Virus record (IMG/VR): IMGVR_UViG_3300049142_000058
Coordinates: 7,909-71,908 of that record
Direction: 5' to 3' (one strand)
Length of the DNA: 64,000 nt
Source of the DNA: a virus
Taxonomy: Duplodnaviria > Caudoviricetes
Shown here: piece by piece, positions 4,551 through 23,212 of the stretch
Layout of the letters: every line of letters begins with the position of its first letter
How positions within the stretch are numbered: the stretch's first letter is position 1
Program-made: the position numbers and the translations under genes
Notes under the pieces: generated by a model
Told to the model about the DNA's origin: nothing
Database searches by the model: none
What the model saw: only the letters and a program-made list of their open reading frames with translations

Positions 4551-4891
4551 CCGCCGGCCTCCCCCGTCGTCCGGTGCCGCCAGGACAGCTCCGGACACGT
4601 CCGCCAGCAGCCATCCGGACACCCATCCGCACAGGTCACAGGCCCTACGGTCTCCGTGTCCTGATCCAGGTCCGGACCCTGGTGGACACCATCCGCGGAC
4701 GCCTCCGGACACCTCCGGATGCGCCCGGACGCCGACCATCCGATGACCACCCCGAGGAGTCCGGCGCCCGCGGAGTACGGCGCCCACACGTCCGCCGTAC
4801 GCACCGTCCGGTCCACGCCCTCCGCGAGGGTGATGAGCACCTCAAGCAGCCACACGACCGGCCCCCTCCTCTCGGGCGCGCCGCTGATCAC
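4547..4891 (-). CDS. Hypothetical protein
   Basis: Stop overlaps the next ATG (ATGA). Confidence 0.45.
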   Translation of the reverse strand: MISGAPERRGPVVWLLEVLITLAEGVDRTVRTADVWAPYSAGAGLLGVVIGWSASGRIRRCPEASADGVHQGPDLDQDTETVGPVTCADGCPDGCWRTCPELSWRHRTTGEAGG

Positions 4892-5312
4892 GCATCAGCC
4901 GGTCTTCCAGGTGCTCGCCCTTGACGCACTGCGGGGACTCGCACGTCTGCCGGACCTTGCCGACCGCCTCCCGCCCGTAGTGCTGCTCGAACACCGCGCG
5001 GGCCGCCGTGGTGTGACGGCCACGCCACCGCATCACCGGAGTGCCGTTGTCCTCCGGCCCCGTCCAGTGCGCGTGACCGTCCTGCGTGGCAAGGACCCGG
5101 TCCTCGAGGGCCTGCTCCCACGAGTCCGCGGCAGGCATCGGCCCCCGCTGGAACACCGGCAGCCCCAACCGGCTCCGCATCTCCCGAGGCACGGAGTAAT
5201 CCACGTCCAGCTCCCGCGCTATCGCGAGGTTGGAGTCCCCGCGCTTGAGCCGGCGCGCCACCTCCGACTCCATGAACGCGTCCACCACCGTGCGCGTGGA
5301 GCGGCGCCTCAT
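4842..5312 (-). CDS. HTH plus degenerate HNH-like domain protein
   Basis: LAIARELDV HTH; HWTG...TAARAVFE...CESPQCVKGEHL resembles the HNH_3 scaffold. Confidence 0.65.
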   Translation of the reverse strand: MRRRSTRTVVDAFMESEVARRLKRGDSNLAIARELDVDYSVPREMRSRLGLPVFQRGPMPAADSWEQALEDRVLATQDGHAHWTGPEDNGTPVMRWRGRHTTAARAVFEQHYGREAVGKVRQTCESPQCVKGEHLEDRLMRDQRRAREEGAGRVAA

Positions 5313-5872
5313 GACGCCCCCCGCTCCGGCAGCGCCCACACGCGGATCACGCAGCCCGGGGAGTCCAGGACATCCGGCACCGTCCCGTGGTCGGTCTCGT
5401 AGTACTTGCCGAGCCCGACGTAATCCACGACCTGCGCGTCATCGCGGTACACCAGCGCGGTGGTGAGGGCGTCCTCAGTGGCCCGCACCAGCTTGGACAG
5501 GTCCGGCTTGACCGACGGGCGGCGGGGCGCCGACGGGCGCAGCACGCCCGCGTTACGCCCCGTGCCGAAGTGGCTTTTGGGCCGGGCGAGAGTGAACGTC
5601 ATCGACAGGGCCACGGCCCCGGTGAGCGGCTGGTACCCCTCCACCTTCTGCCGGGCCTCCACCGCGGCGTCCACCACGGCCACGCGCCACGGCTTGACCT
5701 TGGCGGAGGACTCCACCATCCGGCCCCCGCCCTTGTGGCTCTTGCTGCCCTGCGGCCCGGGGATGCCGTGCACGACGACCACCAGGGCGGGCGCAGCGTC
5801 GGCGGCCCTCTCCTGCCCCGTCTGCGCCTCCTCGACGGGCGCCTCCTCGAACAGCGTCGGCTCACTCACCAC
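5309..5872 (-). CDS. rusA: RusA-like Holliday junction resolvase
   Basis: PGPQGSK, KPDLSKLVRATEDAL, YRDDAQVV. Confidence 0.9.
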   Translation of the reverse strand: MVSEPTLFEEAPVEEAQTGQERAADAAPALVVVVHGIPGPQGSKSHKGGGRMVESSAKVKPWRVAVVDAAVEARQKVEGYQPLTGAVALSMTFTLARPKSHFGTGRNAGVLRPSAPRRPSVKPDLSKLVRATEDALTTALVYRDDAQVVDYVGLGKYYETDHGTVPDVLDSPGCVIRVWALPERGAS

Positions 5873-6551
5873 CGGTCACCGTCCCGTCCATCCAGCCCTC
5901 CGGCAGCGACGGCGCCGCGGACACCGCGGTGAGCACCAAGTCATCCGGGTCCGTGGCCCGGCAGTTGGCCGCCGCCTCCAGGTAGGAGCCCTCCAGCTCC
6001 TGCGGGGCCATGCCGGTCTCGTGCAGCAGCTGGTCCAGCAGGACCGTCACCGGCTCTGTAAGGTGCCAGCCGACGACGACCACCCGCGCGGTGCGCGCCT
6101 CCAGGTCCACCTCCTCCACGTGGACCGGCGTGACGAACCGCGCCCCGTCCCGGGCGTCCAGGTAGGCACGCGCGAACTCCGTCACCCGCAGCACGCCCTC
6201 CTGCTCACTCAGGAACCCGCGCACGGTCAGCGGCCCGGCCGCGTCCGTGGGGTCGCTCACGCCGTTCTCGCCGGCGGCCAGCGACCGCAGGAACGCCTCA
6301 TGCGCGGCCTCAAGGGGCCGCTCCACGGCGTACCGGACGGCACGGATGCGCTCCAGCCGCCACGCGTGCGTGCCGCGCGTCGTCGCCGCCGAGCACGGGC
6401 AGCCCTTGACGACTTCCGGGTGGTCGCTGATGCCGCGGCACTGGTGGACGCTGGACCGGCCGCGCTCACACAACCGGGCAGAGCAGCACTCGCAGTTGGG
6501 GCACGGCTTCGACTGCGGCCTCTCATACAGGGGGCCGAACGTCTCAATCAT
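5862..6551 (-). CDS. Hypothetical protein (N-terminal Cys cluster)
   Basis: CPNCECC...C...C...CPC; coupled in operon. Confidence 0.7.
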   Translation of the reverse strand: MIETFGPLYERPQSKPCPNCECCSARLCERGRSSVHQCRGISDHPEVVKGCPCSAATTRGTHAWRLERIRAVRYAVERPLEAAHEAFLRSLAAGENGVSDPTDAAGPLTVRGFLSEQEGVLRVTEFARAYLDARDGARFVTPVHVEEVDLEARTARVVVVGWHLTEPVTVLLDQLLHETGMAPQELEGSYLEAAANCRATDPDDLVLTAVSAAPSLPEGWMDGTVTGGE

Positions 6552-6735
6552 GGGCGGTACCTGTTTCTGGATGCGTGGGATGAGGGGTGATCAGTCCGGC
6601 GCCGGCCTGCGTCTGGCTGCCTCGGCGCCGGGGGGCGCGGTGCCGCCCCGTCCCGCGCAGCGACCACCACACAAGGGCGATGGCCACCGCGAGGGACAGG
6701 AACAGCACCGCGGCCCCGACAAGGGCGCGTGTCAC
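6544..6735 (-). CDS. Small membrane protein
   Basis: GTG overlaps the RecT stop (GTGA); one TM helix. Confidence 0.55.
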   Translation of the reverse strand: MTRALVGAAVLFLSLAVAIALVWWSLRGTGRHRAPRRRGSQTQAGAGLITPHPTHPETGTAHD

Positions 6736-7721
6736 CTCTTGCGCCCGCCGCGCTGCTTCTTCGGCTTGGACCGGCCGCGCCGGACCTTGACCGCGAGCGA
6801 CCGGCCGGCGCGCTCCTGCGAGCCCTCCGCCGACCGCGCCGCGCGCTCCGCCTCCGCCAGGAGCTGCGCCGCCTCCGGGTCCGGGGCGTGCAGGATCTGC
6901 GGCGTGCCGTCTTCCGCGGCGTCCTCCACCGCGACCAGCGCCCGCACCTCCACGGACGTGGGCACGTACTTGGCCATGCGGCGGATCGCCGTCTTCAACC
7001 ACATCGCGAGGAAGTCCTTGTGCCAGAAGGAGTCCCGGCGGCCGTTCGCCTCCGCCCGCTGATACGCGGTGCTGTACTCGTCGCGGATCTCCTCCGCGTC
7101 CTCACGGGACAGGACGATCACCTGCGACCGGCCGCCGCCCTTGATCCGGCAGAACGCGTAAGCCAGGATCACCGGGCCGCGCTCCGCCTTGGGCAGGTGC
7201 ACCGCCGGACGGTGGAAGAAGTCGTCCGGAGCCGCCGCGCTCGGCTCGTAGCTCCACTCGTCGCCCTCGTGGATCATCCCGACGTGCACGGAGTCCACGC
7301 GCCCGGATCGGTACATCAGGTCGATGTAGCCGTGATAGGTGGGCAGGAACACCGCGATCTTGCCCTCAGCCTTGATGACCGCGTGGTGTCCGTCCGGCAG
7401 CAGACCGAACCGCGCGCACGTCAGCAACGACTGGAGGACGCTCGCCGGCGTGCAGTGCCGCACGTCCGGCAGCACGTTGCGCACCGCGGCGAAGAACTTG
7501 CCCACGTCCATGTGCCGCGGCAGCACATCGGTGAACTCCCCCTCATACCGCAGGAGGGCCTCCATGCCCTCGTCCTTGAGGGCCTCCCGCTCCTCATGAC
7601 CGCGCTCGGACTCCGGGAGCGGCTCGGCGTAGTCGTGCTGCACGTCCTCAAGCGGCGGGCCCTCCGGGGCCGGACCGCCGGACGTGGCCGCCTTGACCTT
7701 GGCCAGCAGAGTGTTCGACAT
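6732..7721 (-). CDS. recT: RecT-family single-strand annealing recombinase
   Basis: SVLQSLLTCARFGLLP, FLPTYHGYIDLMYRSG, W..DFLAMWLKTAIRRMAKYVP. Confidence 0.9.
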   Translation of the reverse strand: MSNTLLAKVKAATSGGPAPEGPPLEDVQHDYAEPLPESERGHEEREALKDEGMEALLRYEGEFTDVLPRHMDVGKFFAAVRNVLPDVRHCTPASVLQSLLTCARFGLLPDGHHAVIKAEGKIAVFLPTYHGYIDLMYRSGRVDSVHVGMIHEGDEWSYEPSAAAPDDFFHRPAVHLPKAERGPVILAYAFCRIKGGGRSQVIVLSREDAEEIRDEYSTAYQRAEANGRRDSFWHKDFLAMWLKTAIRRMAKYVPTSVEVRALVAVEDAAEDGTPQILHAPDPEAAQLLAEAERAARSAEGSQERAGRSLAVKVRRGRSKPKKQRGGRKR

Positions 7722-7724
7722 GGC

Positions 7725-8765
7725 TTAGAGCCCCTTCGCGTTGGCAGGCACGTACAGGCGGCGCCCACGGCACTCGCGGTAAATGACCGGGTGGTCGGCC
7801 TTGAGCCGGTCCGTGTCGATCACCTGGACCGTGCGCGTGTACTGGCCGACAAGATCGGGGTGGTTCTTGCGGAACGTGGACTCCGAGAAATTCCCGTTCT
7901 GCTTCCACGTCCAGGCCTCAACCCCACCGGCCTTGACGATCTCGTTCTCCTGCGCGTCATCGCGCATCTGGTTCTCGACCGTGGTCACTTGGACCGTGAG
8001 GGCCTTGATCTGCGCCTTGAGGTCGGCACGCTGGGCGCGCAGTCCCTTGGCGTGATCCACCGGCACCTCGGCCACGGCCTCCGGCTTGGCATCCCACAGG
8101 GCCGCCAGCAGCTCCGTGGTGGACTCCAGCCCGTCAACCGGCGGGGGGAACCCCTCCACGATGTGCCGCTGATACCAGGCCGACGCGGCATTGAACAGCT
8201 CCTCGACCAGCTCCTCATTGCGCTCCTGCCGGAACACGGTGAGCCGGTTACCGCCGATCAGCGCGGCCACGTAGGAGTGCGACCAGCCGCACACCGCGGT
8301 GTACCAGTGGGCTTGAAGGGCCGCGTCCTCCGGCGCCTCCGGCTTGTCCACCCACTCATCGGCCAGGAACTCCGACTTGGTCTTGATCTCCAGCGGAGCG
8401 ACGACCACGCCGGAGTCGGAGAGGATGCCGCGGTCCACGTTGGCGAGCGCCCACGAGTGCTCCAGGTGGGCGAACATCCCCGGCATGACCACCGTCGACA
8501 GGCCGGTGTCGTCCTGGAACCACTGCGCCACGGCGGGCTCCAGGTAGCGCCCGGCCCGCATGTACGTGTTGTCCGGCTCGGTGTAACCGTGCTTCTCCTC
8601 GAACACCCTGCGCGGCCCGCGACGCTTGTTCAGGCCGAGGATGGCGGCCACGTCCGACCCGCCGATGCCGGTACGGCGCATCGCGAGCCAGTCCTCATGC
8701 GGGGCATCCGCCGGCAGCACCAGACGGGCAGTCGGCGCGTCCGGCAGCGGGGTTTGGGTGGTCAA
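7725..8765 (-). CDS. YqaJ-like viral recombinase exonuclease
   Basis: WLAMRRTGIGGSDVAAILG, ANVDR, LEIKTK, LQAHWY; AAGGAG RBS before TTG at 8765. Confidence 0.9.
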   Translation of the reverse strand: MTTQTPLPDAPTARLVLPADAPHEDWLAMRRTGIGGSDVAAILGLNKRRGPRRVFEEKHGYTEPDNTYMRAGRYLEPAVAQWFQDDTGLSTVVMPGMFAHLEHSWALANVDRGILSDSGVVVAPLEIKTKSEFLADEWVDKPEAPEDAALQAHWYTAVCGWSHSYVAALIGGNRLTVFRQERNEELVEELFNAASAWYQRHIVEGFPPPVDGLESTTELLAALWDAKPEAVAEVPVDHAKGLRAQRADLKAQIKALTVQVTTVENQMRDDAQENEIVKAGGVEAWTWKQNGNFSESTFRKNHPDLVGQYTRTVQVIDTDRLKADHPVIYRECRGRRLYVPANAKGL

Positions 8766-11220: not shown

Positions 11221-13017
11221 TCAAGAGTACGTCCGGTCTCCTTGCCCCGGTTGCCCCGCGACTGTCGGGTGCTGCGAGCACATCCGCAGCGCCTCCTCGC
11301 GAGCCTCCGTGAACCCGGCCCGTACCTTCTCCTCGTCCTCCCCCCACGCCGCGGCACTGGTCAACGCGAGCGGCCCGGACTCATACCGCACCCGCGTGAC
11401 GACGCTGCGCCCGGTGAACTGGTCCTCCCAATCCCACACCCACCGCCGGGTGACGGACTCCAGCGCCACCCCGGTGGAGAACTGCGTGCCATCCGGCAGG
11501 TACAGCGCGGACCCCCACCACAGCCGCACCCGCTGCGCGGGCTCACGACGCACGTCCTTGACGCCGTTACCGCCGGAGTACGTACGCACCCACCATGCCT
11601 CCGTCATCTTCTCCACACGCGACTCACCGCCGGTCTCGTCCTGCCACACCCGCGCCGTCTCCTCCGCATGGTCCAGCCGCCAGAACGCGAGGCGCACGTC
11701 CACCGGGTCCTCCAGGTGCAGCACGTACACCGCCGGCGCGTTGTCCTGGACGGGCACCTCGAGTTCCGCCACCGCGGCGGCCTCATCGCTCGGTGCCGAC
11801 CCCAGCACCCGCGAGATGGTCTCCATGGCCGCGTCGTCCGCCTCCGGCAGCAGGTGCCCGTACCGGTCGGACGTGGTGGTGATGGACTCATGACCGAGGC
11901 GCCGTTGCACGTACGTGAGGGAGTGCTGCCCGGAGGACAGCAAGGCCGCGGCGTGGGAGTGGCGCAGGTCGTGGAACGTGGGGAACTTGTACTCCGTCAC
12001 CACCCCGTCCGCCTTGGCCTTGGCCACCGCCCGGATCCACCGCTCATAGAACGTGGAGTACGGCAGCCGCTCCCCCTGCCCGTTGTGGAAGATCAACGCG
12101 TTGTGGCTCAGGGACGTGATCCCGTGCGCCTCCAGCTCCTCCCACAGGTCCAGCGGGATACGGATCGTGCGCCGGGACTGCTTGGACTTCGGCTTGCCCA
12201 GGTAGAACCCCTCCTTGGGCTTGCGCTTCCATGCACGCGCCACCCGCAGCGTGCACTTGTCGCCCTCCCTCTTGGCGTGCCGCCGGGCAAGCGCCGACAG
12301 CTCCCCCCACCGCATGCCCGTGGCGTACGCGACCCGCACGAGGAGCTTGTCCGCCGGCCGCGCCAGGAAGGACACGATGCCCTCCACCTCATGAGGTTCG
12401 AGGAACTCCATGTCCTCACCCTCATCGTCCTCCGCGCCGTCGTCGTCGATGCGCGGCAGCCGGGTGCGCTCGCACGGGTTGCGGTCCCGCAGCGGCGGCT
12501 CCCCCTTCACCGCCTCATTGAGGAGCCCGGACAGCAGCCCGTGCAGGTTCTTGAGCGTCTTCGGGCTCATCGGCTTGTACTTCGAGCCGCGGAACACCCA
12601 CGTCTCCGACATGGCCTTGACCCACGCCTGAACCGTCCGGCTGGAGAAGTGCTCTGTGGACCGCACGTCGCAGTTGCCGAACGTGGGGAAGATGTACTTC
12701 TCCAGGTCCCGCAGACAGGCGTGCCGGTAGTCCTCCTCCACACCCACCCGGTTCGTGATGATCTCCGTCGCGAACGCCCGGAACACGTACCGCTCGTCCA
12801 GGTCGTCGGACTCATCCACGTACCCGCGGCCCTTGACCCACCCCGGCGGCCACTGCTGGCCGGCCTCGTTCACCGCGCCCTGGAACACCTTCGCGGAGTC
12901 CTCATCCTCGAAGCGTTCCGTCTGCCACGGCGCCGTGCGGGCGCCGCCCAGTCTCCACTTGACCTGGTAGCTGGTGACCTCACCGTCACGGTTCTTGCGT
13001 GTAGTTATGTAGGCCAT
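11221..13017 (-). CDS. int: Tyrosine integrase with long C-terminal extension
   Basis: ATGMRWGEL (R), KPKSK (K), FHDLRH, LGHESITTTSDRYGH. TACCCT -10 lies 6 nt before ATG 13017. Confidence 0.93.
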   Translation of the reverse strand: MAYITTRKNRDGEVTSYQVKWRLGGARTAPWQTERFEDEDSAKVFQGAVNEAGQQWPPGWVKGRGYVDESDDLDERYVFRAFATEIITNRVGVEEDYRHACLRDLEKYIFPTFGNCDVRSTEHFSSRTVQAWVKAMSETWVFRGSKYKPMSPKTLKNLHGLLSGLLNEAVKGEPPLRDRNPCERTRLPRIDDDGAEDDEGEDMEFLEPHEVEGIVSFLARPADKLLVRVAYATGMRWGELSALARRHAKREGDKCTLRVARAWKRKPKEGFYLGKPKSKQSRRTIRIPLDLWEELEAHGITSLSHNALIFHNGQGERLPYSTFYERWIRAVAKAKADGVVTEYKFPTFHDLRHSHAAALLSSGQHSLTYVQRRLGHESITTTSDRYGHLLPEADDAAMETISRVLGSAPSDEAAAVAELEVPVQDNAPAVYVLHLEDPVDVRLAFWRLDHAEETARVWQDETGGESRVEKMTEAWWVRTYSGGNGVKDVRREPAQRVRLWWGSALYLPDGTQFSTGVALESVTRRWVWDWEDQFTGRSVVTRVRYESGPLALTSAAAWGEDEEKVRAGFTEAREEALRMCSQHPTVAGQPGQGDRTYS

Positions 13018-13092
13018 GGGGGCAGGGTAGCGCGCGTGCGCGCCCACGGTGCGCCCACGGCACCGAAGGACCCTGCCCCCAACAGGCCGTTT

Positions 13093-13170
13093 CCGCAGGT
13101 CAGATACCTGTAGTGTCTTGTACCCGGAACCGGACTCGAACCCGCGATGACACAAACCCGTGACCTGCGG
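13093..13170 (-). other. attP: tRNA 3'-end core GGTTCGAGTCCGGTTCCGGGTA (13121-13142) flanked by inverted CCGCAGGTCA/TGACCTGCGG arm-type sites
   Basis: T-loop GGTTCGAGTCC plus acceptor 3' strand, no 5' half; immediately upstream of int. Confidence 0.8.
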
Positions 13171-13524: not shown

Positions 13525-14154
13525 TCAGCCGAGCTCCGACCCGATCGCCACCCCGAGCATGACCAGCATCGCGACGAGCAGCGCGACGAACGCACCCGCC
13601 CCGACGGCCATCCAGGGACTCTGCCGGTACAGCACCCGCCACGCCTCCAGTCCCGTACGGCCGTCGGCCCACAGCCGCACGCCGAACACGCTCAGGTGGA
13701 TCGAGGTGTACTGCGCGGGCTGGTCGTCCGCGTCGCCGGTCCGCTTCGACTGCTTGCTGTTCACGTGCCTCTCCTCTTCGAAGTGGGCGATTGCCCGCTC
13801 GCTGTATCCGTAGAACCTGCCGCGCTCGGCGTCGCCCTCTGCGTCCGGCGCGTGATCGCCCCACTCGACGACGTCGCACGTGTTCTCGTGCATCGACCAA
13901 CGCACCCGCACCGCGGGGAAGCCGTCGAGTCCTTCGAGCGCCTGGCGCAGCAACATGACCGACGTCGCGTCGCGTACCGGGATGTAGCCGCCGCGCCGTT
14001 CACCGCCGATCGGCACCGCGAGGTAGCTGACCCCGTCGACGACAACCGCCACTGCGGCGTCGACGAGTGACGGGTCCGCCAACCGCTCCCGGTACCACGA
14101 CGTTTCCCACTCCTCGCGTTTGCCCGGGCGCCGCACCTCGGCGGGACCTTCCAT
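13525..14154 (-). CDS. DUF6302-like protein with C-terminal TM
   Basis: WYRERLADPSL..AAVAV...YLAVPIGGERRGGY motif recognised from Streptomyces accessory modules. Confidence 0.6.
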   Translation of the reverse strand: MEGPAEVRRPGKREEWETSWYRERLADPSLVDAAVAVVVDGVSYLAVPIGGERRGGYIPVRDATSVMLLRQALEGLDGFPAVRVRWSMHENTCDVVEWGDHAPDAEGDAERGRFYGYSERAIAHFEEERHVNSKQSKRTGDADDQPAQYTSIHLSVFGVRLWADGRTGLEAWRVLYRQSPWMAVGAGAFVALLVAMLVMLGVAIGSELG

Positions 14155-14242
14155 GGCACCCCTCATCCTCAATCTCGTCCGCACAGCAGTGGGCCCGGCC
14201 TCCACAACTCGCTCCAGAGGCCGGGCCCACTGCTGTGCGCGC

Positions 14243-14551
14243 TCAGGGCCTGCGGAACACCTCGGTCGGCCTGAACGGCCGCTCCGGAGCGGGCGGCAGG
14301 GCAGTGAAGCGCGGGAGGGCTACGCGCTCCGCCGCGTCCTGTGCGCTCTCCTGCGCGGCCACGGCCTGGTCGTCGGCTACACCGCTCGGCGTCCACTGGT
14401 GGCCGTCCCACTCCAACATCCCGCGCGGCACGTCCGGGTCGACGTGCGCACCCCGCTCGGGTTCGCCGAGGGGGACGGCCTTCCGGTCGCCGGGCGCGGG
14501 CCGGCGGGCATCACGGCGTGCGGCCCACTCGTCCAACGGCTCGTCATCCAC
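14243..14551 (-). CDS. DUF6087-like protein
   Basis: DEPLDEWAARR...GAHVDPDVPR...EWDGHQW.P.GVADD. Confidence 0.65.
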   Translation of the reverse strand: MDDEPLDEWAARRDARRPAPGDRKAVPLGEPERGAHVDPDVPRGMLEWDGHQWTPSGVADDQAVAAQESAQDAAERVALPRFTALPPAPERPFRPTEVFRRP

Positions 14552-14623: not shown

Positions 14624-15757
14624 TCAGAGCGTGACGGACCAGCCGCCCCGGGCCAGGGTCGTCTCACCGTCCGGCGTGATCGTCACCTTCGCCCCGTACA
14701 CGGGCAGTTCCCCGTCCTGGAGCCACCGCCACCGGATGCCGTCCAACAGGTCGTACAGGCGGCGCGGGCCGCCCTGGTGCACGGTCGCGGAACGGCTGAC
14801 GGGCTTCGTCTCCGCGCGGGCCCACGAGCCGTCCGGGTGAAGCATCCACGCTGTCGGATTGCCCTGGTCGTCGGTGCCGGTGCGATGCTCGATGCCGGGA
14901 GCCGTGAGGGACAGCATCGACCACACCTCCCACGCCTGCATGACGTTCAGGACCGGGTACGGCGAGTCGGTGACCTCGTCGCCCTCCGCATCGCGGGCCT
15001 TGTTGAACAGCTCATCGAGCAGCGGCGGGTAGTCGTCGCCCGTACGGGTGGCCATGAACGCCGCCCGGTCCCACTCGATCCGGCCGGCCGCGCCGCCGTC
15101 GTCGGTCCTGTCGGCGGTCAGGATCAGCCCTGTCCCGGCGATGGTGGTCACCAGTCGCCCGCCCGGGCGCAGCACCCGCAGCCACGATGCCGGGATGTGC
15201 GGCACGGACACCATGGACACGATCCGGTCGTACTCGCCGGGGAGCGCCTCGGTGGCGTCCTGGAGGAGCATCTTCGGGTGGTAGCCGATCGAGTCGAGAC
15301 GCTCCGAGGCGGCTTGGATCAGGTACTGGTCGACGTCCACCGTCGTCACCTGGTGATCGCCCAGGTACGCGCATGCCAGGGCCGCGCTGTAGCCGGAGCC
15401 CGTCGCGACGTCGAGCAGCTGGTGACTGTGGTGGACGTGCCCGTGTCTGAGCATGGTGACCACCAGGCCCGGCAGGGTGCTGGACGATGTGGGCCGTCCC
15501 GTCACCGCCTCACCGTCGGCAGCGTGGTCGGCGTGCACCGGGCCGACCTTGGTCACGAGGGTCTGGTCCGCGTACGCGGCCCGCGCCCAGGCCGCCTCGT
15601 ACGAAGGGCCGTCCGTGGGGGTCCACCCCTCCGGGCCGGCGGTGAACCACCGCGGGACGAACTCGTGCCGGGGTGTTGCCACAACCGGCCGATACCACCG
15701 GGACGTGGGGGGAACCGTTGAGCGGGCGAGCTGCGCGGCGTGGCGCGTCCAGTCCAT
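14624..15757 (-). CDS. PIMT/PCMT-like RiPP O-methyltransferase (aspartimide-forming type)
   Basis: PRHEFVP, PTSSSTLPGLVVTML, LDVATGSGYSAAL, YDRIV, LRPGGRLV. TGATG-coupled to tgmB. Confidence 0.88.
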   Translation of the reverse strand: MDWTRHAAQLARSTVPPTSRWYRPVVATPRHEFVPRWFTAGPEGWTPTDGPSYEAAWARAAYADQTLVTKVGPVHADHAADGEAVTGRPTSSSTLPGLVVTMLRHGHVHHSHQLLDVATGSGYSAALACAYLGDHQVTTVDVDQYLIQAASERLDSIGYHPKMLLQDATEALPGEYDRIVSMVSVPHIPASWLRVLRPGGRLVTTIAGTGLILTADRTDDGGAAGRIEWDRAAFMATRTGDDYPPLLDELFNKARDAEGDEVTDSPYPVLNVMQAWEVWSMLSLTAPGIEHRTGTDDQGNPTAWMLHPDGSWARAETKPVSRSATVHQGGPRRLYDLLDGIRWRWLQDGELPVYGAKVTITPDGETTLARGGWSVTL

Positions 15758-16725
15758 CAGGAAACTCCTTGCAGTTCGTCGGCGATCGCCGCGGCGATCG
15801 GCTGCCCGGTGGCGCCCTGGATCCAGTCCCATTGCCCGCAGGGATTCACCTCAAGGAACCACCACCGTCCATCAGGGTCAACGACGAAATCGGCGGCCCC
15901 GTAGGTGAGGTGGAGCCGGTCCATCAGGGCGCGCATTCCCGCCTCTACGTCGGAGGGCACCGTGGTGGTGGCGTACGTGAGAGAGCCGTAGTCGGCTCGC
16001 CAGTCCTCGTGTGCGGCGTCGCTTCCGGCGTGCACTTCGGTGGCGAACATGCGCGAGCCGACCACCGTGAGGCGGATCTCGTGGCTCTTGTCGACCCAGG
16101 CTTGGAAGAGATGGGCGGTGCTGGCGATGCCTCGCAGATCAGCGAGATCATCCGGGGTGAGGCGGCGGGTGTAGACGGCTTTGAGGTGGCCGTCCTCGAT
16201 CAGCACCGGGGAGGCCACGGGCTTGCAGATCAGCGGGCCGGGCACCTCGGCGGCGAACTGCCGCACCGCGTCCGGCTCGTTTGTGATCAGGGTCGCCGGG
16301 ATGCGCAGCCCGCACGCGCGGGCCGCGTCGAGCTGGACCGGCTTGTACTCGGCGCGGGCCATGAACGTCGGATGGTTGACCCATCGGCAGTCCAGCGCGG
16401 ACAGGACACCGCCCAGGCCGGCGCGGGCCTGCGCAGCCGCGTACCGCTCCTCAGGGCCGGTCATCCCGTCGGGGAACTGGAACGCCCCGGGGGCGCGGTA
16501 GTACACCGCGCCGACCCGGGACAGCTCCACCGTGCGATGCTCGGTGGCCAGATCCCCCGCCCACCCGTCGAGTCCCCAGTCGAGCCGGCCGGTCAGCGAT
16601 ATCCGCTGCGGGAAGTCGGCGGTGTCCATGCGGAACACCTCGACTCCCCGGCCGGTCAGCTCGGTCATGACGCGATCGGTCGGCCAGTCATCGTTGGCCG
16701 CGATCACCAGGACAGGCAGGGACAT
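15757..16725 (-). CDS. tgmB: ATP-grasp RiPP maturase (graspetide synthetase)
   Basis: D.PTDRVMTEL, AVYYRAP, WVNHP, AEYKPVQL, P.TLITN, ICKPV, FQAWVDK..EIR, DWR, YGAADF, WWFLEVNPCGQW. Confidence 0.93.
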   Translation of the reverse strand: MSLPVLVIAANDDWPTDRVMTELTGRGVEVFRMDTADFPQRISLTGRLDWGLDGWAGDLATEHRTVELSRVGAVYYRAPGAFQFPDGMTGPEERYAAAQARAGLGGVLSALDCRWVNHPTFMARAEYKPVQLDAARACGLRIPATLITNEPDAVRQFAAEVPGPLICKPVASPVLIEDGHLKAVYTRRLTPDDLADLRGIASTAHLFQAWVDKSHEIRLTVVGSRMFATEVHAGSDAAHEDWRADYGSLTYATTTVPSDVEAGMRALMDRLHLTYGAADFVVDPDGRWWFLEVNPCGQWDWIQGATGQPIAAAIADELQGVS

Positions 16726-16728
16726 GAG

Positions 16729-17025
16729 TTAGTCCTTCGCCCCTTCGTCCAGCGGCGGCGGGTTGCTCGTCGAGCCGTCCGGCACGGTCGGGCTGTGCGT
16801 GTTGGCCATGCAGGTCAACAGGCCCCCGTCGTACGACAGGTTGACCTGCCGCTCCGTGTCGTAGAAATGCGCCGGAATGACGGCGGCGCCGGTCGAGTCG
16901 GGGGTGCGGGCGAAACGCAGCCCCCACGGCCGGGTGTCCGGCCCCGACGGCGGCTCACTGCTGAACGGGACCCGGCCGCCAGGCGGGGTGAGCGGGAACG
17001 CCTCACGGTCCAAAGCTGTCGTCAT
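16729..17025 (-). CDS. tgmA: Graspetide precursor peptide
   Basis: Leader RPWGLR and YDTERQV; core ANTHSPTVPDGSTSNPPPLDEGAKD. Confidence 0.88.
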   Translation of the reverse strand: MTTALDREAFPLTPPGGRVPFSSEPPSGPDTRPWGLRFARTPDSTGAAVIPAHFYDTERQVNLSYDGGLLTCMANTHSPTVPDGSTSNPPPLDEGAKD

Positions 17026-17088: not shown

Positions 17089-17277
17089 TCAGATTCCGAT
17101 CGGCTGCCGCGCCAGGAAGTACGCGCGGGCCTGTCGCATGAGGCGCTCAAGGCAGTCCTCACACGCGAAGAACGGGCAGTGCTGCCCGTCCCACTGCACC
17201 GGCCCGAGCCAGATCACCCGCAGGCCGGTGCGCTCGCACCCGAGCCAGCAGTCTCCAGTGATCCAGTGCCGTTCCAC
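17089..17277 (-). CDS. Small Zn-binding hypothetical protein
   Basis: CWLGC...ACEDCL. Confidence 0.65.
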   Translation of the reverse strand: MERHWITGDCWLGCERTGLRVIWLGPVQWDGQHCPFFACEDCLERLMRQARAYFLARQPIGI

Positions 17278-17507: not shown

Positions 17508-17906
17508 TCACGTCTCCAGGAGTACGGGGGCGCGCATGAGGGTCCATCCGCCGTGGCCGATGGCTACCTCGCCCTCCAGGGGCTCGCGGCACTGCGTGTG
17601 CAGCACCAGCAGCGCTCGCGCGGTCACGCCAAGGTCGTGCAGCCTCTCCGGCAGGTTGGCCGACGGCGCGTCGGGGGCGAGGAGTTCGTCCACGTGGCGC
17701 AGGGTGCACAGGGCCGCGTCGCGCGTGCTGGTCTGCATGCGCGGGACGATGGCGGCCACCTCCGGGGAGAGCTGACGCACGTACCCCTCGATCGTGCCGA
17801 TCAGCGCGGGCAACGCCTCGCCGGTCGGCGCCGGTTCCCACAGGGCACGCTGACACGTCCTGTGGATCGTCTCGGCGTCGATGGCCGCCGTCTGCTCAGT
17901 GCCCAC
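17508..17906 (-). CDS. DUF6415-like protein
   Basis: IDAETI..T..RAL...L...I.GYVRQL.PEV pattern; a common neighbour of Streptomyces RiPP cassettes. Confidence 0.55.
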   Translation of the reverse strand: MGTEQTAAIDAETIHRTCQRALWEPAPTGEALPALIGTIEGYVRQLSPEVAAIVPRMQTSTRDAALCTLRHVDELLAPDAPSANLPERLHDLGVTARALLVLHTQCREPLEGEVAIGHGGWTLMRAPVLLET

Positions 17907-18465
17907 CGCGGACCTCCTCCACCGTGAGCCGGTCCCGTCCGTACGTCACCAGCCGGGCGACGGCGTCCGCATCGCACAGGGTGCCGGGTCTGTCCATCGG
18001 CACGCACCAGTAGGACCAGTGCATCTCGGGGTCCGTGCACTCCAGACGGGGCACGCCCATGAGCCAATCTCCGTCCAGGAGCTGCACGCCGACGTACCGG
18101 CGCCCCTGCCACTCCGGGCGGTGGGAGGTGTCCGGCGGTACCAGGGCGTAGTACCTGCGGTTCTGCTGGTCGGCGAACACCGGCCCGCCGTGCAGCTGCT
18201 CACGCAGAAAGGCGTTCACCGTCTGCGGGCCCGTAGTGCCTGCCGCAGCGTGGATGATCTCCGCGTTGACAGCGACCGCGGCGAACAGCCTGCCGCACTT
18301 GAGCAGGGCCACACCGCCCTTGTCCCACTCCCGGAGGGCCTGCTCGGCGCCCTGCGCGGCCAGCAGCAGCCACGACTGCACCGACCTTTCACGCTCCCGG
18401 GGGTGCAGCAGCACGCCGTCCGGCGGGTGATGGGTGGTGCTGGTATGTGACGGCGCGGTGCTCAT
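17896..18465 (-). CDS. Conserved Streptomyces hypothetical (prim-pol-like fold possible)
   Basis: WLL.AA....ALREW..GGVALL.CGRLF.AV; GPVFAD...RYYALVP. Confidence 0.65.
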   Translation of the reverse strand: MSTAPSHTSTTHHPPDGVLLHPRERERSVQSWLLLAAQGAEQALREWDKGGVALLKCGRLFAAVAVNAEIIHAAAGTTGPQTVNAFLREQLHGGPVFADQQNRRYYALVPPDTSHRPEWQGRRYVGVQLLDGDWLMGVPRLECTDPEMHWSYWCVPMDRPGTLCDADAVARLVTYGRDRLTVEEVRGGH

Positions 18466-18564: not shown

Positions 18565-19806
18565 TCACACGACGCCGAGCCGGATGCCCATCTCAACCAG
18601 CTCGCTGCGCTTTTGAGTGCGGATCATCGTGCCCACGGTCTCCCGTACGCCGGCGTGCATCCGGGTGGCCTGCGGCGCCAGACGCTCCGCCTTGAGGAAC
18701 GCGCCGAGGGCCTCCTCCCGCTGTCCGTTGTAGAAGTGGGCTCGCCCCACGTCGATGTAGTGGTGGGAGTGCCGTTCCGGCGCGAACTTCTTGGGCAGGC
18801 GCACCTTGACGGCACGGTCCACGGCCAGGCGGCCCTTGCCCATCTCCACGGGCAGGCTCACACCCCAGATGGCTACGTTCGTCGGACCAAACTGGAGCTG
18901 GAAGTCGTTGCGGTCCTCCCCGAGTTCCTCCGCCGCCTGCTTCGCTTTCTTCCAGTGCCGTTCGGTGCTCTCCGGGTCGGCGGACCGCGCGGAGTTGAGC
19001 GCGGCTTTCAGGTGGAACACGCCCCGCAGGGACACCACCTCGGGCCGGCCTTCGCGTAGGCCGCCCAGCTCGGTGAGGGCGCCGTCGATGATGGCTCCCG
19101 CCTCGTCGTGGTCCCCTATGCACAGGAACTCGCCGGCGTCGTACCACTGCGCGGCCAGGATGCGCAGCGGGTCCTCACTGGTCTGCGCCGCCCACAGCAC
19201 CCGCTCCGTGGCCAGGGTGGCGTCTGAGGTGTGGCCCAGCTTGTACAGGTACTGCATGGCGCACTCATACGCGGAGGCGAGCAGCCCGAAGGCTTCCCGC
19301 CGCGTGTCCCCGTTGAGCACCTCACACGCCACCTGGAGGTCGCGCAGCAAGGCGGGCAGGACGGCGCCGGACTTGGACAGGGCCGCGGCCTGCCGGTGAG
19401 CATTCGCCTCACCGACACGGCGCCGCAGCTCCAGCAGGTCAACCGCCGCCGCCTCCAGGTCGGAGGGCCGGGCGGGGCGGCCGTGCCGCAGCAGCGCATG
19501 ACGTACAGCAGCGACGGAGGCGACCGCCGCCTGCCCCTCTATGTCGGAGGCCACCGGCATGTACGGTCCGCCGGTGATTTCGGTGGGGTGACAGTCCAGG
19601 GCTTTGGCGAACTGGAGGACCACGGGCGGGCGGTCCAGGCTTCGGCGACCTTGTTCGAAGGCTTTCACGGAGGCGAGAGAGTATCCGGTTTCGGTGGCGA
19701 GGCGCTGCTGTGTCCAGCGGCGGCGCGCACGGAGGCGGGCAAGGCGCTGCCCGTTGCTCTCAGTGCTCCCCCGTGTGTCAGCGTAGTGGGGCATACTGGG
19801 CTCCAT
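18565..19806 (-). CDS. XRE HTH regulator with TPR-like C-terminal domain
   Basis: LARLRARRRWTQQRLA..TGYS...VKAFEQGRR; FGPTNVAIWGVS; RHSHHYIDVGRA; AERLAPQ. Confidence 0.88.
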   Translation of the reverse strand: MEPSMPHYADTRGSTESNGQRLARLRARRRWTQQRLATETGYSLASVKAFEQGRRSLDRPPVVLQFAKALDCHPTEITGGPYMPVASDIEGQAAVASVAAVRHALLRHGRPARPSDLEAAAVDLLELRRRVGEANAHRQAAALSKSGAVLPALLRDLQVACEVLNGDTRREAFGLLASAYECAMQYLYKLGHTSDATLATERVLWAAQTSEDPLRILAAQWYDAGEFLCIGDHDEAGAIIDGALTELGGLREGRPEVVSLRGVFHLKAALNSARSADPESTERHWKKAKQAAEELGEDRNDFQLQFGPTNVAIWGVSLPVEMGKGRLAVDRAVKVRLPKKFAPERHSHHYIDVGRAHFYNGQREEALGAFLKAERLAPQATRMHAGVRETVGTMIRTQKRSELVEMGIRLGVV

Positions 19807-21950: not shown

Positions 21951-22916
21951 TCAGGACTCCTTGAAGACGAGCGCCGTGAGGACGGCGCTGGTGATGGTGA
22001 CCGGAGCGTCGGACTGGTTCAGCAGCCGCACCCGCATGCCGCGGCCCTTCGCGAGCCGTTTCGTCAGCGGCACCACGCCGTAAGTGCCGCCGGGCGTGCC
22101 GATGATCTCGTGGATCGGGTGATCCGCCCTGTGCTCGTCGCCCTCGTACTCCGACATGCGGACCTGGACGACGTGGCCGACGGCCAGGCCGTCGAGGGTG
22201 AGACTCACGCTGCCGGTGAACTTCGCGGCGCCCCGCACGAACACACTGCCGCCGGCGGCATGGTCGCCGGCGGTGTCCGCCCACTCCTGCGTGAACTCGA
22301 TGGAGTCCCACGCGCCCGGCCGCAGCGTGAAGGCCTTCGCCAGGCCGACGTTCACATAGTTGGGCACGTCTTCCTCCTGTTGTGTCTGGCCGTTGGCGGC
22401 GGCGACGATCCGCGGGAACAGCACCTCACGGAACTGGCGGATGCGGGCCGCTCCCGGGCAGGCCGTGCCGTCCGTCGACCACTGCGGGAACATGCTGTGA
22501 TAGCCGAACCCCGGGTCATCGTGGCTGCGGCAGATCCGCAGCGGGATCCCGTGGTGCTCGTGCAACCACACGCCGATGCGGACCAGCATGTCGAGCTGCT
22601 CGTCCGTCCACGGGTCTGACCCCTTCGTGTTCGACGCCGTCTCGGCGCTGACAGCGCCGGTTCCGTCGGCTCGCCGGTTCGCTCCCGCATTCGCGTCCGC
22701 CCTGGTCTCAGTCCCGATGTACTGAGCAGCGCTGCCGTCGTGGCCCACCCCGAAATGAGATTCGAGGTTGGTGGAATCCCGCCAGAACTCATACGTGCGC
22801 TGCGGCGTCCACGGCGCGACGATGGTGTGCACGATGAACTGCGTCGGCCGGATCGCCGCCTGGTTGTCGGACTCCGGTTGGAGCTCCAGCTTCTTTACGA
22901 ACGGGCACCAGGCCAT
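21951..22916 (-). CDS. Endolysin, N-acetylmuramoyl-L-alanine amidase (Amidase_2)
   Basis: FIVHTIV, ESHFGV, SAETAS, FGYHS, TACPG. TGATG-coupled start MAWCP. Confidence 0.9.
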   Translation of the reverse strand: MAWCPFVKKLELQPESDNQAAIRPTQFIVHTIVAPWTPQRTYEFWRDSTNLESHFGVGHDGSAAQYIGTETRADANAGANRRADGTGAVSAETASNTKGSDPWTDEQLDMLVRIGVWLHEHHGIPLRICRSHDDPGFGYHSMFPQWSTDGTACPGAARIRQFREVLFPRIVAAANGQTQQEEDVPNYVNVGLAKAFTLRPGAWDSIEFTQEWADTAGDHAAGGSVFVRGAAKFTGSVSLTLDGLAVGHVVQVRMSEYEGDEHRADHPIHEIIGTPGGTYGVVPLTKRLAKGRGMRVRLLNQSDAPVTITSAVLTALVFKES

Positions 22917-23212
22917 CAGGGGGTCTCCTCCGGCTCGGACGGCGGGGTGTAGCCGGACAGGGTGGACGCCACGGCCGGGTCGAAGTTGGCGGCCACCAGC
23001 GCGTCGTACGCGCCCTTCTTCTGCGCCGCCTCCGCGGCCTGCACGTCGGCCTTGTGCTGGTCCTGAGCCGCCCGCCACTGGGACAGCTTGACCGCGTACG
23101 CCTCCGCGTCCAGGAGCGTGGCGCCGGGCGGGGGCGTCGGGTCGGGGTGCGTCGTCTCCATCGTGCCGAGTCGGCCGTCCGGGAACTCGTAGTACAGCGT
23201 CTGAACTGCCAT
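22916..23212 (-). CDS. Small tail-fibre chaperone-like protein (copy 2)
   Basis: YYEFPDGRL...PPGATLLDAEAY...LVAANF..AVASTLSGY; paralog of 24030-24326. Confidence 0.65.
   Translation of the reverse strand: MAVQTLYYEFPDGRLGTMETTHPDPTPPPGATLLDAEAYAVKLSQWRAAQDQHKADVQAAEAAQKKGAYDALVAANFDPAVASTLSGYTPPSEPEETP

What the first reader, a model, noticed from the sequence alone, without database searches (positions are those of the whole stretch)
14624..17025. Complete graspimiditide-type RiPP cluster carried by a phage
Seen: precursor (RPWGLR leader; core ANTHSPTVPDGSTSNPPPLDEGAKD), ATP-grasp ligase and PIMT homolog, translationally coupled. Known: graspetide ligases form Thr/Ser-Asp ester macrocycles, and partner PIMT enzymes convert the Asp of a DG motif to aspartimide (fuscimiditide, amycolimiditide). 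Inference: the phage makes a hairpin macrocyclic peptide with no exporter or peptidase in the cassette. That points to an intracellular role, such as lysis-lysogeny signalling, anti-defence or protease inhibition, rather than a secreted antibiotic.
Basis: partly seen in the sequence, partly recalled or inferred. Interest (0 to 1): 0.75.

Follow-up and report, generated by a model that had tools for sequence, protein, structure and literature searches.

The report
Phage-carried graspimiditide peptide gene cassette
A temperate Streptomyces phage carries, next to its integration site, a complete and well-conserved gene set for a small cross-linked peptide (a graspimiditide); the chemistry is a known kind, but phage carriage is new and gives a practical way to find out what these peptides do.

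Summary
On the minus strand, a 98-aa precursor (17025-16729), an MvdD-type ATP-grasp ligase (16725-15757) and a PIMT-like methyltransferase (15757-14624) are tightly coupled and match the TIGR04186/04187/04188 system.

The record is a complete 71.9-kb temperate Streptomyces siphophage. The cassette lies after the lysis genes and about 1.1 kb from attP and the integrase.

The cassette is not phage-specific. At least 79 actinomycete species, nearly all Streptomyces, and 15 plasmid records carry it with an almost invariant core (THxPTVPDGxxxNPPPLDEGxKD). At least 10 of 83 loci sit in phages of three unrelated lineages. All four genes are under purifying selection.

I predict two Thr-to-Glu/Asp esters and an aspartimide at the invariant Asp-Gly.

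Lack of an exporter or peptidase is normal for graspimiditides, so it says little about an intracellular role. The invariant core argues against phage-specific lysis-lysogeny signalling. Function is unknown. Anti-phage protection of the lysogen is my favoured guess, by analogy with the PIMT-bearing lanthivirins.

Other windows of this scan already reported phage-borne graspetides of the two-gene type. I found no paper describing phage-borne graspetides.

The parts
16729..17025 (-). Precursor peptide (tgmA-type), 98 aa. Leader carries RPWGLRF; the C-terminal 23-residue core is THSPTVPDGSTSNPPPLDEGAKD.
   Evidence: TIGR04186 E 2.1e-11. AAGGAG ribosome-binding site. Core almost invariant in 79 homologues. 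dN/dS 0.18-0.30.
15757..16725 (-). MvdD-type ATP-grasp graspetide ligase (tgmB-type), 322 aa.
   Evidence: TIGR04187 417.6 bits, over the cut-off of 350. PF21068. Nearest solved structure 9bou_A, E 7e-46. dN/dS 0.09-0.25.
14624..15757 (-). PIMT-like peptide aspartyl O-methyltransferase with a C-terminal extension, 377 aa. It belongs to a divergent lineage.
   Evidence: TIGR04188 aligned full length, 265 bits, below the cut-off of 380. PF01135. PTSSSTLP and DVATGSGY motifs kept; the C-terminal motif reads WLQDGELP. Start overlaps the ligase stop.
14243..14551 (-). DUF6087 protein, about 102 aa. It is the fourth conserved gene of the cassette; its role is unknown.
   Evidence: PF19565 E 2.5e-27. 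Present after the methyltransferase in about 33 loci, including a plasmid. 25 invariant columns. dN/dS 0.13-0.25. AF2 pLDDT 70.7, no PDB match.
13525..14205 (-). DUF6302 protein, between the cassette and attP. It is shared only with the closest phage relatives.
   Evidence: PF19819 E 4.5e-38. 76% identical in L007 and L091 only.
13123..13142 (.). Probable attP core, resembling the 3' end of tRNA-Leu(UAA).
   Evidence: 19 of 20 match to the tRNA-Leu(taa) that lies beside a 49%-identical integrase in L020.
11221..13155 (-). Tyrosine integrase. The true start is probably near 13017.
   Evidence: PF00589 E 2.9e-19. phrog_1 E 4.8e-52.
17089..17277 (-). 62-aa cysteine-rich protein just upstream of the precursor.
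   Evidence: ORF with GC3 of 0.87. 84% identical in L007, 45% in L031. No family match.
17508..17906 (-). DUF6415 protein.
   Evidence: PF19979 E 5.3e-7. DUF6415 genes also lie upstream of the cassette in other loci.
17896..18465 (-). 189-aa protein of unknown family ('f8'), recurrent upstream of the cassette.
   Evidence: Homologues lie upstream of the precursor in 6 other loci. No Pfam, PHROG or NCBIfam match.
18565..19806 (-). XRE-type HTH plus TPR regulator, 413 aa.
   Evidence: PF13560. phrog_5823 E 3.6e-76. AF2 pLDDT 88; Foldseek top hit PlcR-PapR-DNA 3u3w_A, E 5.6e-4, also ComR. Only 27% identical between closely related phages.
21954..23006 (-). Endolysin homologue. It marks the end of the lysis module upstream of the cargo region.
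   Evidence: 75-78% identical to the gene of L002 and L007, whose L081 homologue matches phrog_880 endolysin.

Best explanation
The cassette is a working four-gene graspimiditide unit (precursor, ATP-grasp ligase, aspartyl O-methyltransferase, DUF6087). A temperate Streptomyces siphophage carries it as accessory cargo in the slot between the lysis genes and attP/integrase.

Shown:
- The gene identities, their coupling and their position in the phage.
- The same unit, with an almost invariant core, sits on chromosomes and plasmids and in at least three unrelated phage lineages.
- All four genes are under purifying selection.

Inferred from established graspimiditide chemistry:
- The ligase binds the leader and makes two omega-ester links, Thr(-19) to Glu(-5) and Thr(-23) to Asp(-1). 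The spacing is 4 and 4, as in fuscimiditide.
- The methyltransferase then methylates the invariant loop Asp(-16). This Asp cyclises onto Gly(-15) to give an aspartimide, which later opens to isoAsp.

Inferred about role:
- The peptide is the same whatever carries it, so it acts on a target conserved across Streptomyces or their phages, and it benefits the cell that holds the element.
- My favoured role, at about one in three, is protection of the lysogen against other phages from inside the cell, as shown for the PIMT-bearing lanthivirins.
For: Identity:
- TIGR04186, TIGR04187 and TIGR04188 matches, with Pfam PCMT and the MvdD domain.
- Coupling read directly from the sequence.

Phage and position:
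- Structural, recombination and integrase genes in a complete virus record.
- Endolysin homologue at 21954-23006 and attP-like site at 13123-13142.

Conserved core: T(-23) 99%, T(-19) 99%, D(-16)/G(-15) 100%, and D(-6), E(-5), K(-2) and D(-1) each 100%, in 79 precursors whose ligases are 61-95% identical.

Mobility:
- 15 Streptomyces plasmid records hold the ligase at 60-80% identity.
- L007 is a related prophage: capsid 56% identical about 41 kb upstream, integrase and tRNA-Met downstream.
- L003 is a Gilgamesh-like 126-kb phage, with the cassette in a swapped block beside the portal gene.
- L004, L038, L039, L051 and L052 are Raleigh-like prophages with the cassette between tail/lysis genes and the integrase plus tRNA.
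- The phage-borne copies fall in different parts of the ligase tree.

Selection: dN/dS 0.09-0.35 for all four genes.

Precedent for the role: lanthiphages carry a PIMT domain, mostly lack transporters, are enriched on prophages and plasmids, and act intracellularly on phage transcription (10.1101/2024.06.26.600839; 10.64898/2026.08.26.747419).
Against: - No chemistry was tested; the cross-link map is a prediction from spacing rules.
- The methyltransferase scores below the TIGR04188 cut-off. Its motif I has Ala for the first Gly, and its C-terminal motif is WxxxGxxP rather than WxxxGxP.
- For the anti-phage role: PADLOC found no defence protein among the window's neighbours, and association with defence islands was not tested.
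- Most copies (about 70 of 83 loci) show no phage genes within 10 kb.
- Two loci have three ABC-transporter genes upstream, which would fit export.
- Nothing shows when the cassette is expressed, and no promoter or terminator could be called.
Confidence: 0.6

Rival explanations
1. The peptide works outside the cell, as assumed for chromosomal copies. Host proteases remove the leader and host transporters export it. It then inhibits a protease, as microviridins do, or acts on competitors or on development. The phage merely spreads a host fitness gene.
For: - The same core occurs in non-phage loci of many species.
- Spent medium of S. albus trims the albusimiditide leader, and the authors propose reliance on host proteases and transporters.
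- Three ABC-transporter genes lie upstream in L010 and L012.
- Microviridin-type graspetides are protease inhibitors.
Against: - No bioactivity has been found for any graspimiditide.
- No transporter lies near the cassette in the window or in most loci.
- The precursor has no signal sequence features that I could see.
- A secreted weapon would be expected to diversify, or to come with an immunity gene.
Confidence: 0.25
2. It is a lysis-lysogeny or phage-to-phage signal. The cross-linked peptide would be sensed by the adjacent XRE-HTH plus TPR regulator, in the manner of arbitrium or PlcR/ComR systems.
For: - The regulator at 18565-19806 is predicted as HTH plus a TPR superhelix, and its best structural match is PlcR bound to its peptide, followed by ComR.
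- It lies in the lysogeny region of a temperate phage.
- XRE regulators co-occur with group-13 clusters (PMC13097080).
Against: - The core peptide is invariant across unrelated phages, plasmids and chromosomes, so it carries no phage-specific information.
- The regulators of the three closest phages are only about 27% identical although the enzymes are 86-95% identical.
- The Gilgamesh-like phage has the four genes without such a regulator beside them.
- Foldseek TM-scores are low, 0.22-0.28.
- Cultured phage Raleigh has the regulator but no peptide genes.
Confidence: 0.07
3. It is a phage counter-defence or host-takeover factor made during lytic growth, for example an inhibitor of a host protease or defence enzyme.
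For: - All genes run in the same direction as the late operon, so read-through is possible.
- The Gilgamesh-like phage carries the cassette next to the portal gene rather than next to an integrase.
- The aspartimide could act as an electrophilic trap (PMC13001092).
Against: - Most copies lie in non-phage DNA, where a counter-defence gene has no use.
- None of 50,697 cultured phage records has this ligase family apart from two distant hits.
- The position next to attP is typical of genes expressed from the prophage.
Confidence: 0.08

Closest known systems
Fuscimiditide system ThfA/ThfB/ThfM (Thermobifida fusca) and the other characterised graspimiditides (amycolimiditide, albusimiditide, SsfA)
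   Same: - Precursor, ATP-grasp ligase and PIMT homologue in one coupled operon.
- Thr donors on the N-terminal side, acidic acceptors on the C-terminal side, and an Asp-Gly in the loop.
- The 23-residue core with two predicted esters is closest in size and spacing to fuscimiditide, which has two esters with three residues between cross-links.
   Different: - The core sequence is unrelated; there was no hit to the solved peptides.
- One predicted acceptor is Glu.
- The methyltransferase is a divergent lineage.
- A fourth conserved gene, DUF6087, is present.
- The cassette is carried by phages and plasmids.
- The product has not been characterised.
TIGR04186/04187/04188 'SAV_5884' system, i.e. 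group 13 graspetides (PGAP names tgmA/tgmB)
   Same: - The ligase is over the curated cut-off and the precursor matches the target model.
- Plasmid homologues are annotated tgmA/tgmB.
- XRE-type regulators lie nearby, as reported for group 13.
   Different: - The methyltransferase of this subfamily scores about 260 bits. The sister subfamily scores about 350 bits and the cut-off is 380.
- DUF6087 is not listed among the co-occurring families in the supplement that I could search.
Lanthiphages/lanthivirins (PIMT-bearing class I lanthipeptide clusters with anti-phage function, S. coelicolor coi cluster)
   Same: - Actinobacterial RiPP with a PIMT-type methyltransferase acting on an Asp-Gly.
- No protease in the cluster and usually no transporter.
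- More often on prophages and plasmids than related clusters.
   Different: - The primary chemistry differs: thioether rings there, ester rings here.
- There is no sequence relation between the precursors.
- The anti-phage role is shown there and is only a hypothesis here.
Type I pamtide / imiditide pairs (precursor plus PIMT homologue only)
   Same: - The methyltransferase belongs to the same family.
- Cultured S. venezuelae phages (PapayaSalad, Austintatious, Ididsumtinwong, Bioscum, Alderaan) carry such a methyltransferase (TIGR04188 337 bits for PapayaSalad).
- In PapayaSalad it lies between the endolysin and the regulator/integrase, behind a 48-aa Gly/Ser-rich ORF with an SDGSG motif. This is the same genomic slot.
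   Different: - Those phages have no ATP-grasp ligase and no ester rings.
- Their methyltransferase is only 31% identical.
Two-gene graspetide cassettes of Streptomyces phages noted earlier in this scan (group 11, prunipeptin type)
   Same: A graspetide precursor plus MvdD-type ligase carried as phage cargo in Streptomyces (earlier AI notes, which I did not check).
   Different: Those cassettes have no methyltransferase and a different precursor family. This window has the aspartimide-forming three-enzyme-type layout plus DUF6087.

Membership tests
Graspimiditide (aspartimidylated graspetide, group 13) | Precursor with a leader and a core that has Thr/Ser donors on the N-terminal side and Asp/Glu acceptors on the C-terminal side | tested here: met
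   TIGR04186 E 2.1e-11. Thr(-23), Thr(-19), Asp(-6), Glu(-5) and Asp(-1) are 99-100% conserved in 79 homologues.
Graspimiditide (aspartimidylated graspetide, group 13) | MvdD/MdnC-type ATP-grasp ligase next to the precursor | tested here: met
   TIGR04187 417.6 bits over the cut-off of 350, and PF21068. Its start lies 3 nt after the precursor stop.
Graspimiditide (aspartimidylated graspetide, group 13) | PIMT homologue with the extra C-terminal domain | tested here: met
   PF01135, and TIGR04188 aligned over positions 2-362 of 363. The score of 265 bits is below the curated cut-off of 380, so this is a divergent member.
Graspimiditide (aspartimidylated graspetide, group 13) | Conserved Asp-Xaa dyad in the region between donors and acceptors | tested here: met
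   Asp-Gly is 100% conserved in 79 precursors and lies 3-4 residues after the inner Thr.
Graspimiditide (aspartimidylated graspetide, group 13) | WxxxGxP motif near the C-terminus of the methyltransferase (PMC13001092) | tested here: inconclusive
   The window and its subfamily read WLQDGELP (WxxxGxxP). The sister subfamily and the PapayaSalad enzyme have the canonical spacing.
Graspimiditide (aspartimidylated graspetide, group 13) | Three-gene cluster (the criterion used by Choi et al.) | tested here: not met
   A fourth gene, DUF6087, is conserved directly after the methyltransferase in about 33 loci. The three defining genes are all present.
Graspimiditide (aspartimidylated graspetide, group 13) | Omega-ester macrocycles and an aspartimide in the product | not testable with these tools
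   This needs co-expression and mass spectrometry.
Anti-phage PIMT-bearing RiPPs (lanthiphage/lanthivirin-like) | Frequent residence on prophages and plasmids | tested here: met
   At least 10 of 83 loci lie in three phage lineages, and 15 plasmid records carry the ligase. No comparison with a background rate was made.
Anti-phage PIMT-bearing RiPPs (lanthiphage/lanthivirin-like) | Colocalisation with known defence systems | tested here: not met
   PADLOC found no defence protein among ten proteins of the cassette and its neighbours in the window. Other loci were not scanned.
Anti-phage PIMT-bearing RiPPs (lanthiphage/lanthivirin-like) | Protection against phage infection when expressed | not testable with these tools
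   This needs plaque assays.
RRNPP-type peptide signalling (PlcR, ComR, AimR) | HTH plus TPR receptor encoded beside the peptide gene | tested here: met
   AF2 model with pLDDT 88. Foldseek hits PlcR-PapR at E 5.6e-4 and ComR at 2.4e-3, but with TM-scores of 0.22-0.29.
RRNPP-type peptide signalling (PlcR, ComR, AimR) | Peptide and receptor vary together between elements, giving specificity | tested here: not met
   The core is identical in WIN, L002 and L007, while their regulators are about 27% identical.

The most novel reading that the evidence does not exclude
Graspimiditides would be a second family of PIMT-marked RiPPs that act inside Streptomyces cells against infecting phages, as lanthivirins do. 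Temperate phages and plasmids would trade the four-gene cassette as a superinfection-exclusion weapon. The aspartimide/isoAsp hairpin would be the shared active feature, and DUF6087 would be a partner or immunity factor. This would give the first biological function for any graspimiditide.
Probability: 0.25. Interest if true: 0.8.

Novelty: new variant of a known kind. Interest (0 to 1): 0.6.

Why it matters
More than a thousand graspimiditide clusters are known and four products have been solved, but none has a known function. The field's own review calls linking aspartimidylated RiPPs to biology 'the bigger challenge' (PMC13001092).

A copy that rides in the attP-proximal cargo slot of temperate phages, in three unrelated phage lineages and under purifying selection, turns that question into simple experiments. 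One can compare lysogens with and without the cassette for phage resistance, competition and development.

It also adds three things:
- DUF6087, an overlooked fourth gene.
- Evidence that an almost invariant peptide is spread by phages, plasmids and tRNA-linked islands.
- A link between the graspimiditides and the PIMT-plus-peptide pairs already present in cultured Streptomyces phages.

None of the held papers that I searched mentions phage-borne graspetides.

Tried and rejected
- blastn of the cassette DNA against 50,697 phage records found nothing.
- The consensus promoter and terminator scan of 11-21 kb was uninformative in this 70% G+C DNA.
- The PADLOC scan of the cassette and its neighbours gave only a generic methyltransferase hit and HTH hits.
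- DUF6087: the AF2 model is of moderate confidence. Foldseek found no PDB match at E 0.001 or better. The weak dsRBD-like alpha-beta-beta-beta-alpha resemblance (probability 0.3 or less) is not evidence.
- I looked for the core motif in papers and supplements to assign it to one of Choi's clusters. No text holds PPPLDEG, and the supplements and the published versions are not held.
- The TIGR04188 search of 301 Streptomyces species gave 118 genomes over the cut-off. Generic methyltransferase hits occur in every genome, so sub-cut-off hits cannot be counted as this subfamily.
- tblastn of two flanking proteins against plasmids was uninformative. The same protein searched against phages identified it as a minor tail protein.
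- The careful ML tree did not finish in the time allowed, so only the quick IQ-TREE with SH-aLRT support is used.
- I considered that the record is a prophage with host flanks and rejected it. The integrase and the attP-like site are internal, phage recombination genes lie beyond them, and no complete tRNA is present.
- My GC3-based gene caller missed some genes, for example the endolysin and many ligase ORFs in loci. Neighbourhood counts are therefore lower bounds.
Full report
**What is there.** The window has about 70% G+C, and nearly every gene lies on the minus strand. At the reported place three ORFs follow one another.
- A 98-aa precursor at 17025-16729.
- A 322-aa ATP-grasp enzyme at 16725-15757.
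- A methyltransferase ending at 14624.

NCBIfam places them in the three models of one system:
- TIGR04186, the target peptide: E 2.1e-11, over the cut-off.
- TIGR04187, the ATP-grasp maturase: 417.6 bits, cut-off 350.
- TIGR04188, the system's methyltransferase: aligned end to end, but 265 bits against a cut-off of 380.

Pfam adds the MvdD pre-ATP-grasp domain and PCMT. The sequence shows an AAGGAG site 9 nt before the precursor ATG and a 3-nt gap between the precursor stop and the ligase start. The ligase stop and the methyltransferase start overlap as TGATG, so the methyltransferase begins at 15757.

**A fourth gene.** Comparing the phage's proteins with related loci showed that the ORF just downstream of the methyltransferase is conserved wherever the methyltransferase is 62% or more identical.
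- It is DUF6087 (PF19565, E 2.5e-27).
- In 24 aligned homologues the conserved part starts at MDDEPL. In the window this corresponds to a GTG at 14551, behind a GGGAAGG site.
- It is present in about 33 loci, including an unannotated stretch of a plasmid.
- Its dN/dS is 0.13-0.25.
- The AlphaFold model (pLDDT 70.7) shows a small alpha-beta-beta-beta-alpha core and a proline-rich tail. It has no significant PDB match. Its role is unknown.

**The vehicle.** The window is bases 7909-71908 of a 71,908-bp IMG/VR virus record that CheckV rates 100% complete.
- PHROGs identify the large terminase, portal, MuF/protease fusion, major capsid, head-tail adaptor, major tail, tape measure and minor tail proteins, and RecE/RecT-like genes.
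- Pfam finds a tyrosine integrase.
- The structural genes are about 68% identical in DNA to Streptomyces phages TurkishDelight, TP1604 and YDN12.
- An endolysin homologue lies at about 21954-23006.

Reading along the minus strand, the order after the endolysin is:
1. XRE-HTH regulator (19806-18565).
2. An unknown 189-aa gene.
3. DUF6415.
4. A 62-aa cysteine-rich gene.
5. The four-gene cassette.
6. DUF6302.
7. A 20-nt stretch (13123-13142) that matches 19 of 20 bases of the 3' end of tRNA-Leu(UAA).
8. The integrase.

No complete tRNA is present. This is the free arrangement of a temperate phage. After integration, the cassette would lie at the far end of the prophage, next to the junction.

**Relatives.** A pattern scan of one genome per prokaryotic species returned 79 loci, nearly all Streptomyces, with ligases 43-95% identical.
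- All but three loci have a precursor just upstream; in one further locus (L078) the matching frame runs on into the ligase gene.
- Over 79 precursors the core is almost fixed as THxPTVPDGxxxNPPPLDEGxKD. The two Thr are 99% conserved. Asp-Gly, Asp-Glu-Gly, Lys and the final Asp are 100% conserved.
- The quick ligase tree splits the family into two well-supported subfamilies (99% SH-aLRT each).
- Subfamily A includes the window. It has the divergent methyltransferase (about 260 bits on TIGR04188) and DUF6087.
- Subfamily B has a methyltransferase that is only 31-42% identical to the window's (about 350 bits) and no DUF6087.
- The ligase family also occurs on 15 Streptomyces plasmid records at 60-80% identity, annotated tgmA/tgmB. 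One of them is a 48.5-kb plasmid with relaxase and transfer genes.

**How often in phages.**
- *Cultured phages.* Among 50,697 records, only two distant ligase hits exist: a Leptospira phage and a gut phage.
- *IMG/VR.* Besides the window's own record, four contigs hold a relative.
- *Lineage 1, the window's own kind.* L002/L091 is a syntenic metagenomic phage contig. L007 is a prophage in Streptomyces sp. NPDC126510, with a capsid gene 56% identical about 41 kb upstream and an integrase plus tRNA-Met just downstream. L081 has an endolysin 7 kb upstream.
- *Lineage 2.* L003/L092 is a 126-kb contig whose portal-MuF protein is 82% identical to Streptomyces phage Gilgamesh. The four genes lie in a 5.2-kb block where Gilgamesh has five other genes.
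- *Lineage 3.* L004/L093, L038, L039, L051 and L052 have homologues of the minor tail, tail fibre, endolysin and gp23/24 genes of phage Raleigh upstream of the cassette. Where the flank reaches far enough, an integrase and a tRNA gene lie downstream.
- *A more distant case.* L094 has a ligase 47% identical, a different core and an endolysin nearby.

At least 10 of 83 loci are therefore phage-borne, in three unrelated backbones. In the temperate ones the cassette sits in the same slot, between the lysis genes and the integrase. The phage copies fall in different parts of the ligase tree, so the cassette has moved in or out of phages several times. Nine further loci have a tRNA gene within 10 kb. 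These counts are lower bounds, because I read only 10-kb flanks and probed with only three phage types.

**Is it functional?** Between the window and L007, L091, L008 and L009, dN/dS values are as follows:
- Precursor: 0.18-0.30.
- Ligase: 0.09-0.25.
- Methyltransferase: 0.24-0.35.
- DUF6087: 0.13-0.25.

The methyltransferase keeps the PTSSSTLP stretch and a DVATGSGY SAM-binding motif, with Ala in place of the first Gly. Its C-terminal motif reads WLQDGELP instead of the WxxxGxP described for RiPP PIMTs (PMC13001092).

**Predicted product.** Characterised graspimiditides are stem-loop hairpins. Their Thr-to-Asp esters have equal spacing on both stems, and the modified Asp lies in the loop, followed by Gly.
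- Only two hydroxyl residues are conserved here, at -23 and -19.
- The equal-spacing rule pairs Thr(-19) with Glu(-5) and Thr(-23) with Asp(-1).
- Asp(-16)-Gly(-15) is then the aspartimide site.
- The invariant Asp(-6) and Lys(-2) remain unexplained. A third link, or a link through the C-terminal carboxylate as proposed for SsfA, cannot be excluded.

All of this is inference.

The lack of an exporter and a peptidase is the rule for this class.
- Choi et al. selected three-gene clusters and suggested reliance on host proteases and transporters.
- No native protease is known for any graspimiditide.

So the lack of these genes does not point to an intracellular role. A lysis-lysogeny signal would need specificity, but the peptide is the same in unrelated phages, plasmids and chromosomes.

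The neighbouring regulator does have the HTH-plus-TPR architecture of peptide-sensing regulators. Foldseek's best hit is PlcR with its peptide, and ComR follows. Three points count against it being the peptide's receptor:
- It is only about 27% identical among the three closest phages, although their enzymes are 86-95% identical.
- The Gilgamesh-like phage lacks it beside the cassette.
- Cultured phage Raleigh has such a regulator in this slot without any peptide genes.

I read it as an exchangeable local regulator. This fits the reported co-occurrence of XRE-family regulator pairs with group-13 clusters.

**Most likely role.** Function is unknown for the whole class. The evidence comes down to four points:
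- The peptide is the same whatever carries it.
- It sits in the cargo slot of temperate phages.
- It also occurs on plasmids and on tRNA-linked islands.
- It is under purifying selection.

This is the profile of an accessory gene that benefits the carrier cell. The nearest functional precedent is the lanthiphage/lanthivirin family. These class I lanthipeptide clusters carry a PIMT domain, mostly lack transporters, are enriched on prophages and plasmids, and protect Streptomyces from phages from inside the cell. On that analogy I favour protection of the lysogen against other phages, at about one in three. Against it, PADLOC found no defence gene among the window's neighbours, and most copies show no phage context. 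An extracellular role like that of microviridins is the main rival.

**Novelty.** The enzyme chemistry and the cluster type are known, and PGAP already names such genes tgmA/tgmB. Three things are new:
- Carriage by phages in three lineages.
- The conserved fourth gene, together with the divergent methyltransferase subfamily.
- The near-invariance of this core.

The phage-BGC survey, the pamtide paper and the graspimiditide papers do not mention phage-borne graspetides. Earlier notes of this scan report two-gene graspetide cassettes in other Streptomyces phages, and one further three-gene case. I did not check those.

Noticed in passing
window 13123-13142 (between DUF6302 and the integrase): A 20-nt stretch matches 19 of 20 bases of the 3' end (T-arm and acceptor) of tRNA-Leu(UAA). 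That tRNA lies next to a 49%-identical integrase in L020. This fits an attP aimed at the bldA-type tRNA. The integrase ORF as listed (start 13155) overruns this site, so the true start is probably near 13017.
   Followed up: partly
L090 (Streptomyces phage PapayaSalad) 3600-4939; also Austintatious, Ididsumtinwong, Bioscum, Alderaan: Cultured S. venezuelae phages carry a RiPP-type PIMT homologue (TIGR04188 337 bits for PapayaSalad) without an ATP-grasp gene. In PapayaSalad it lies directly behind a 48-aa Gly/Ser-rich ORF with an SDGSG motif, between the endolysin and the regulator/serine integrase. This looks like a phage-borne type I pamtide/imiditide pair.
   Followed up: partly
window 18565-19806 (-): The 413-aa XRE regulator is predicted with confidence (pLDDT 88) as an HTH plus a TPR superhelix. 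Foldseek ranks PlcR-PapR-DNA first and ComR among the hits, so it has the RRNPP-like architecture. Homologues in closely related phages are only about 27% identical.
   Followed up: partly
window 17089-17277 (-): A 62-aa protein with five cysteines (CxxxC ... HCxxxxCxxC pattern) lies immediately upstream of the precursor. It is 84% identical in the L007 prophage and matches no family. It may be a small zinc-binding protein.
   Followed up: no
L092 7380-12553 versus L095 (Gilgamesh) 4054-7971: In a Gilgamesh-like 126-kb phage contig, the four-gene cassette occupies a non-syntenic block upstream of the portal gene. Gilgamesh has gp39-43 there, including thymidylate kinase and a MutT-like gene. 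This is a swap hotspot in a large phage.
   Followed up: partly
L010 440-5981 and L012 19-5456: Three tandem ABC-transporter genes (phrog_2392-like, 570-643 aa) lie 4-10 kb upstream of the cassette in two chromosomal loci of the window's closest clade. They could be an exporter for the peptide, or they could be unrelated.
   Followed up: no
L094 about 700-3044: An IMG/VR provirus contig carries a more distant ligase (47% identical) and methyltransferase (31%). Its precursor core is different: Ser/Thr-rich, then Asp/Glu-rich, ending in NDTD. An endolysin gene lies nearby. This is another phage-borne graspimiditide-type cluster of a different peptide family.
   Followed up: no
L096 (Streptomyces phage Raleigh) 8386-11106: Raleigh's slot between the lysis genes and the integrase holds a 450-aa regulator, a small regulator, and gp27 and gp28. 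Homologues of gp26-gp28 lie directly upstream of the cassette in several non-phage loci (L016, L042, L048, L049, L060, L075). The regulatory genes and the peptide genes seem to travel as loosely linked modules.
   Followed up: partly
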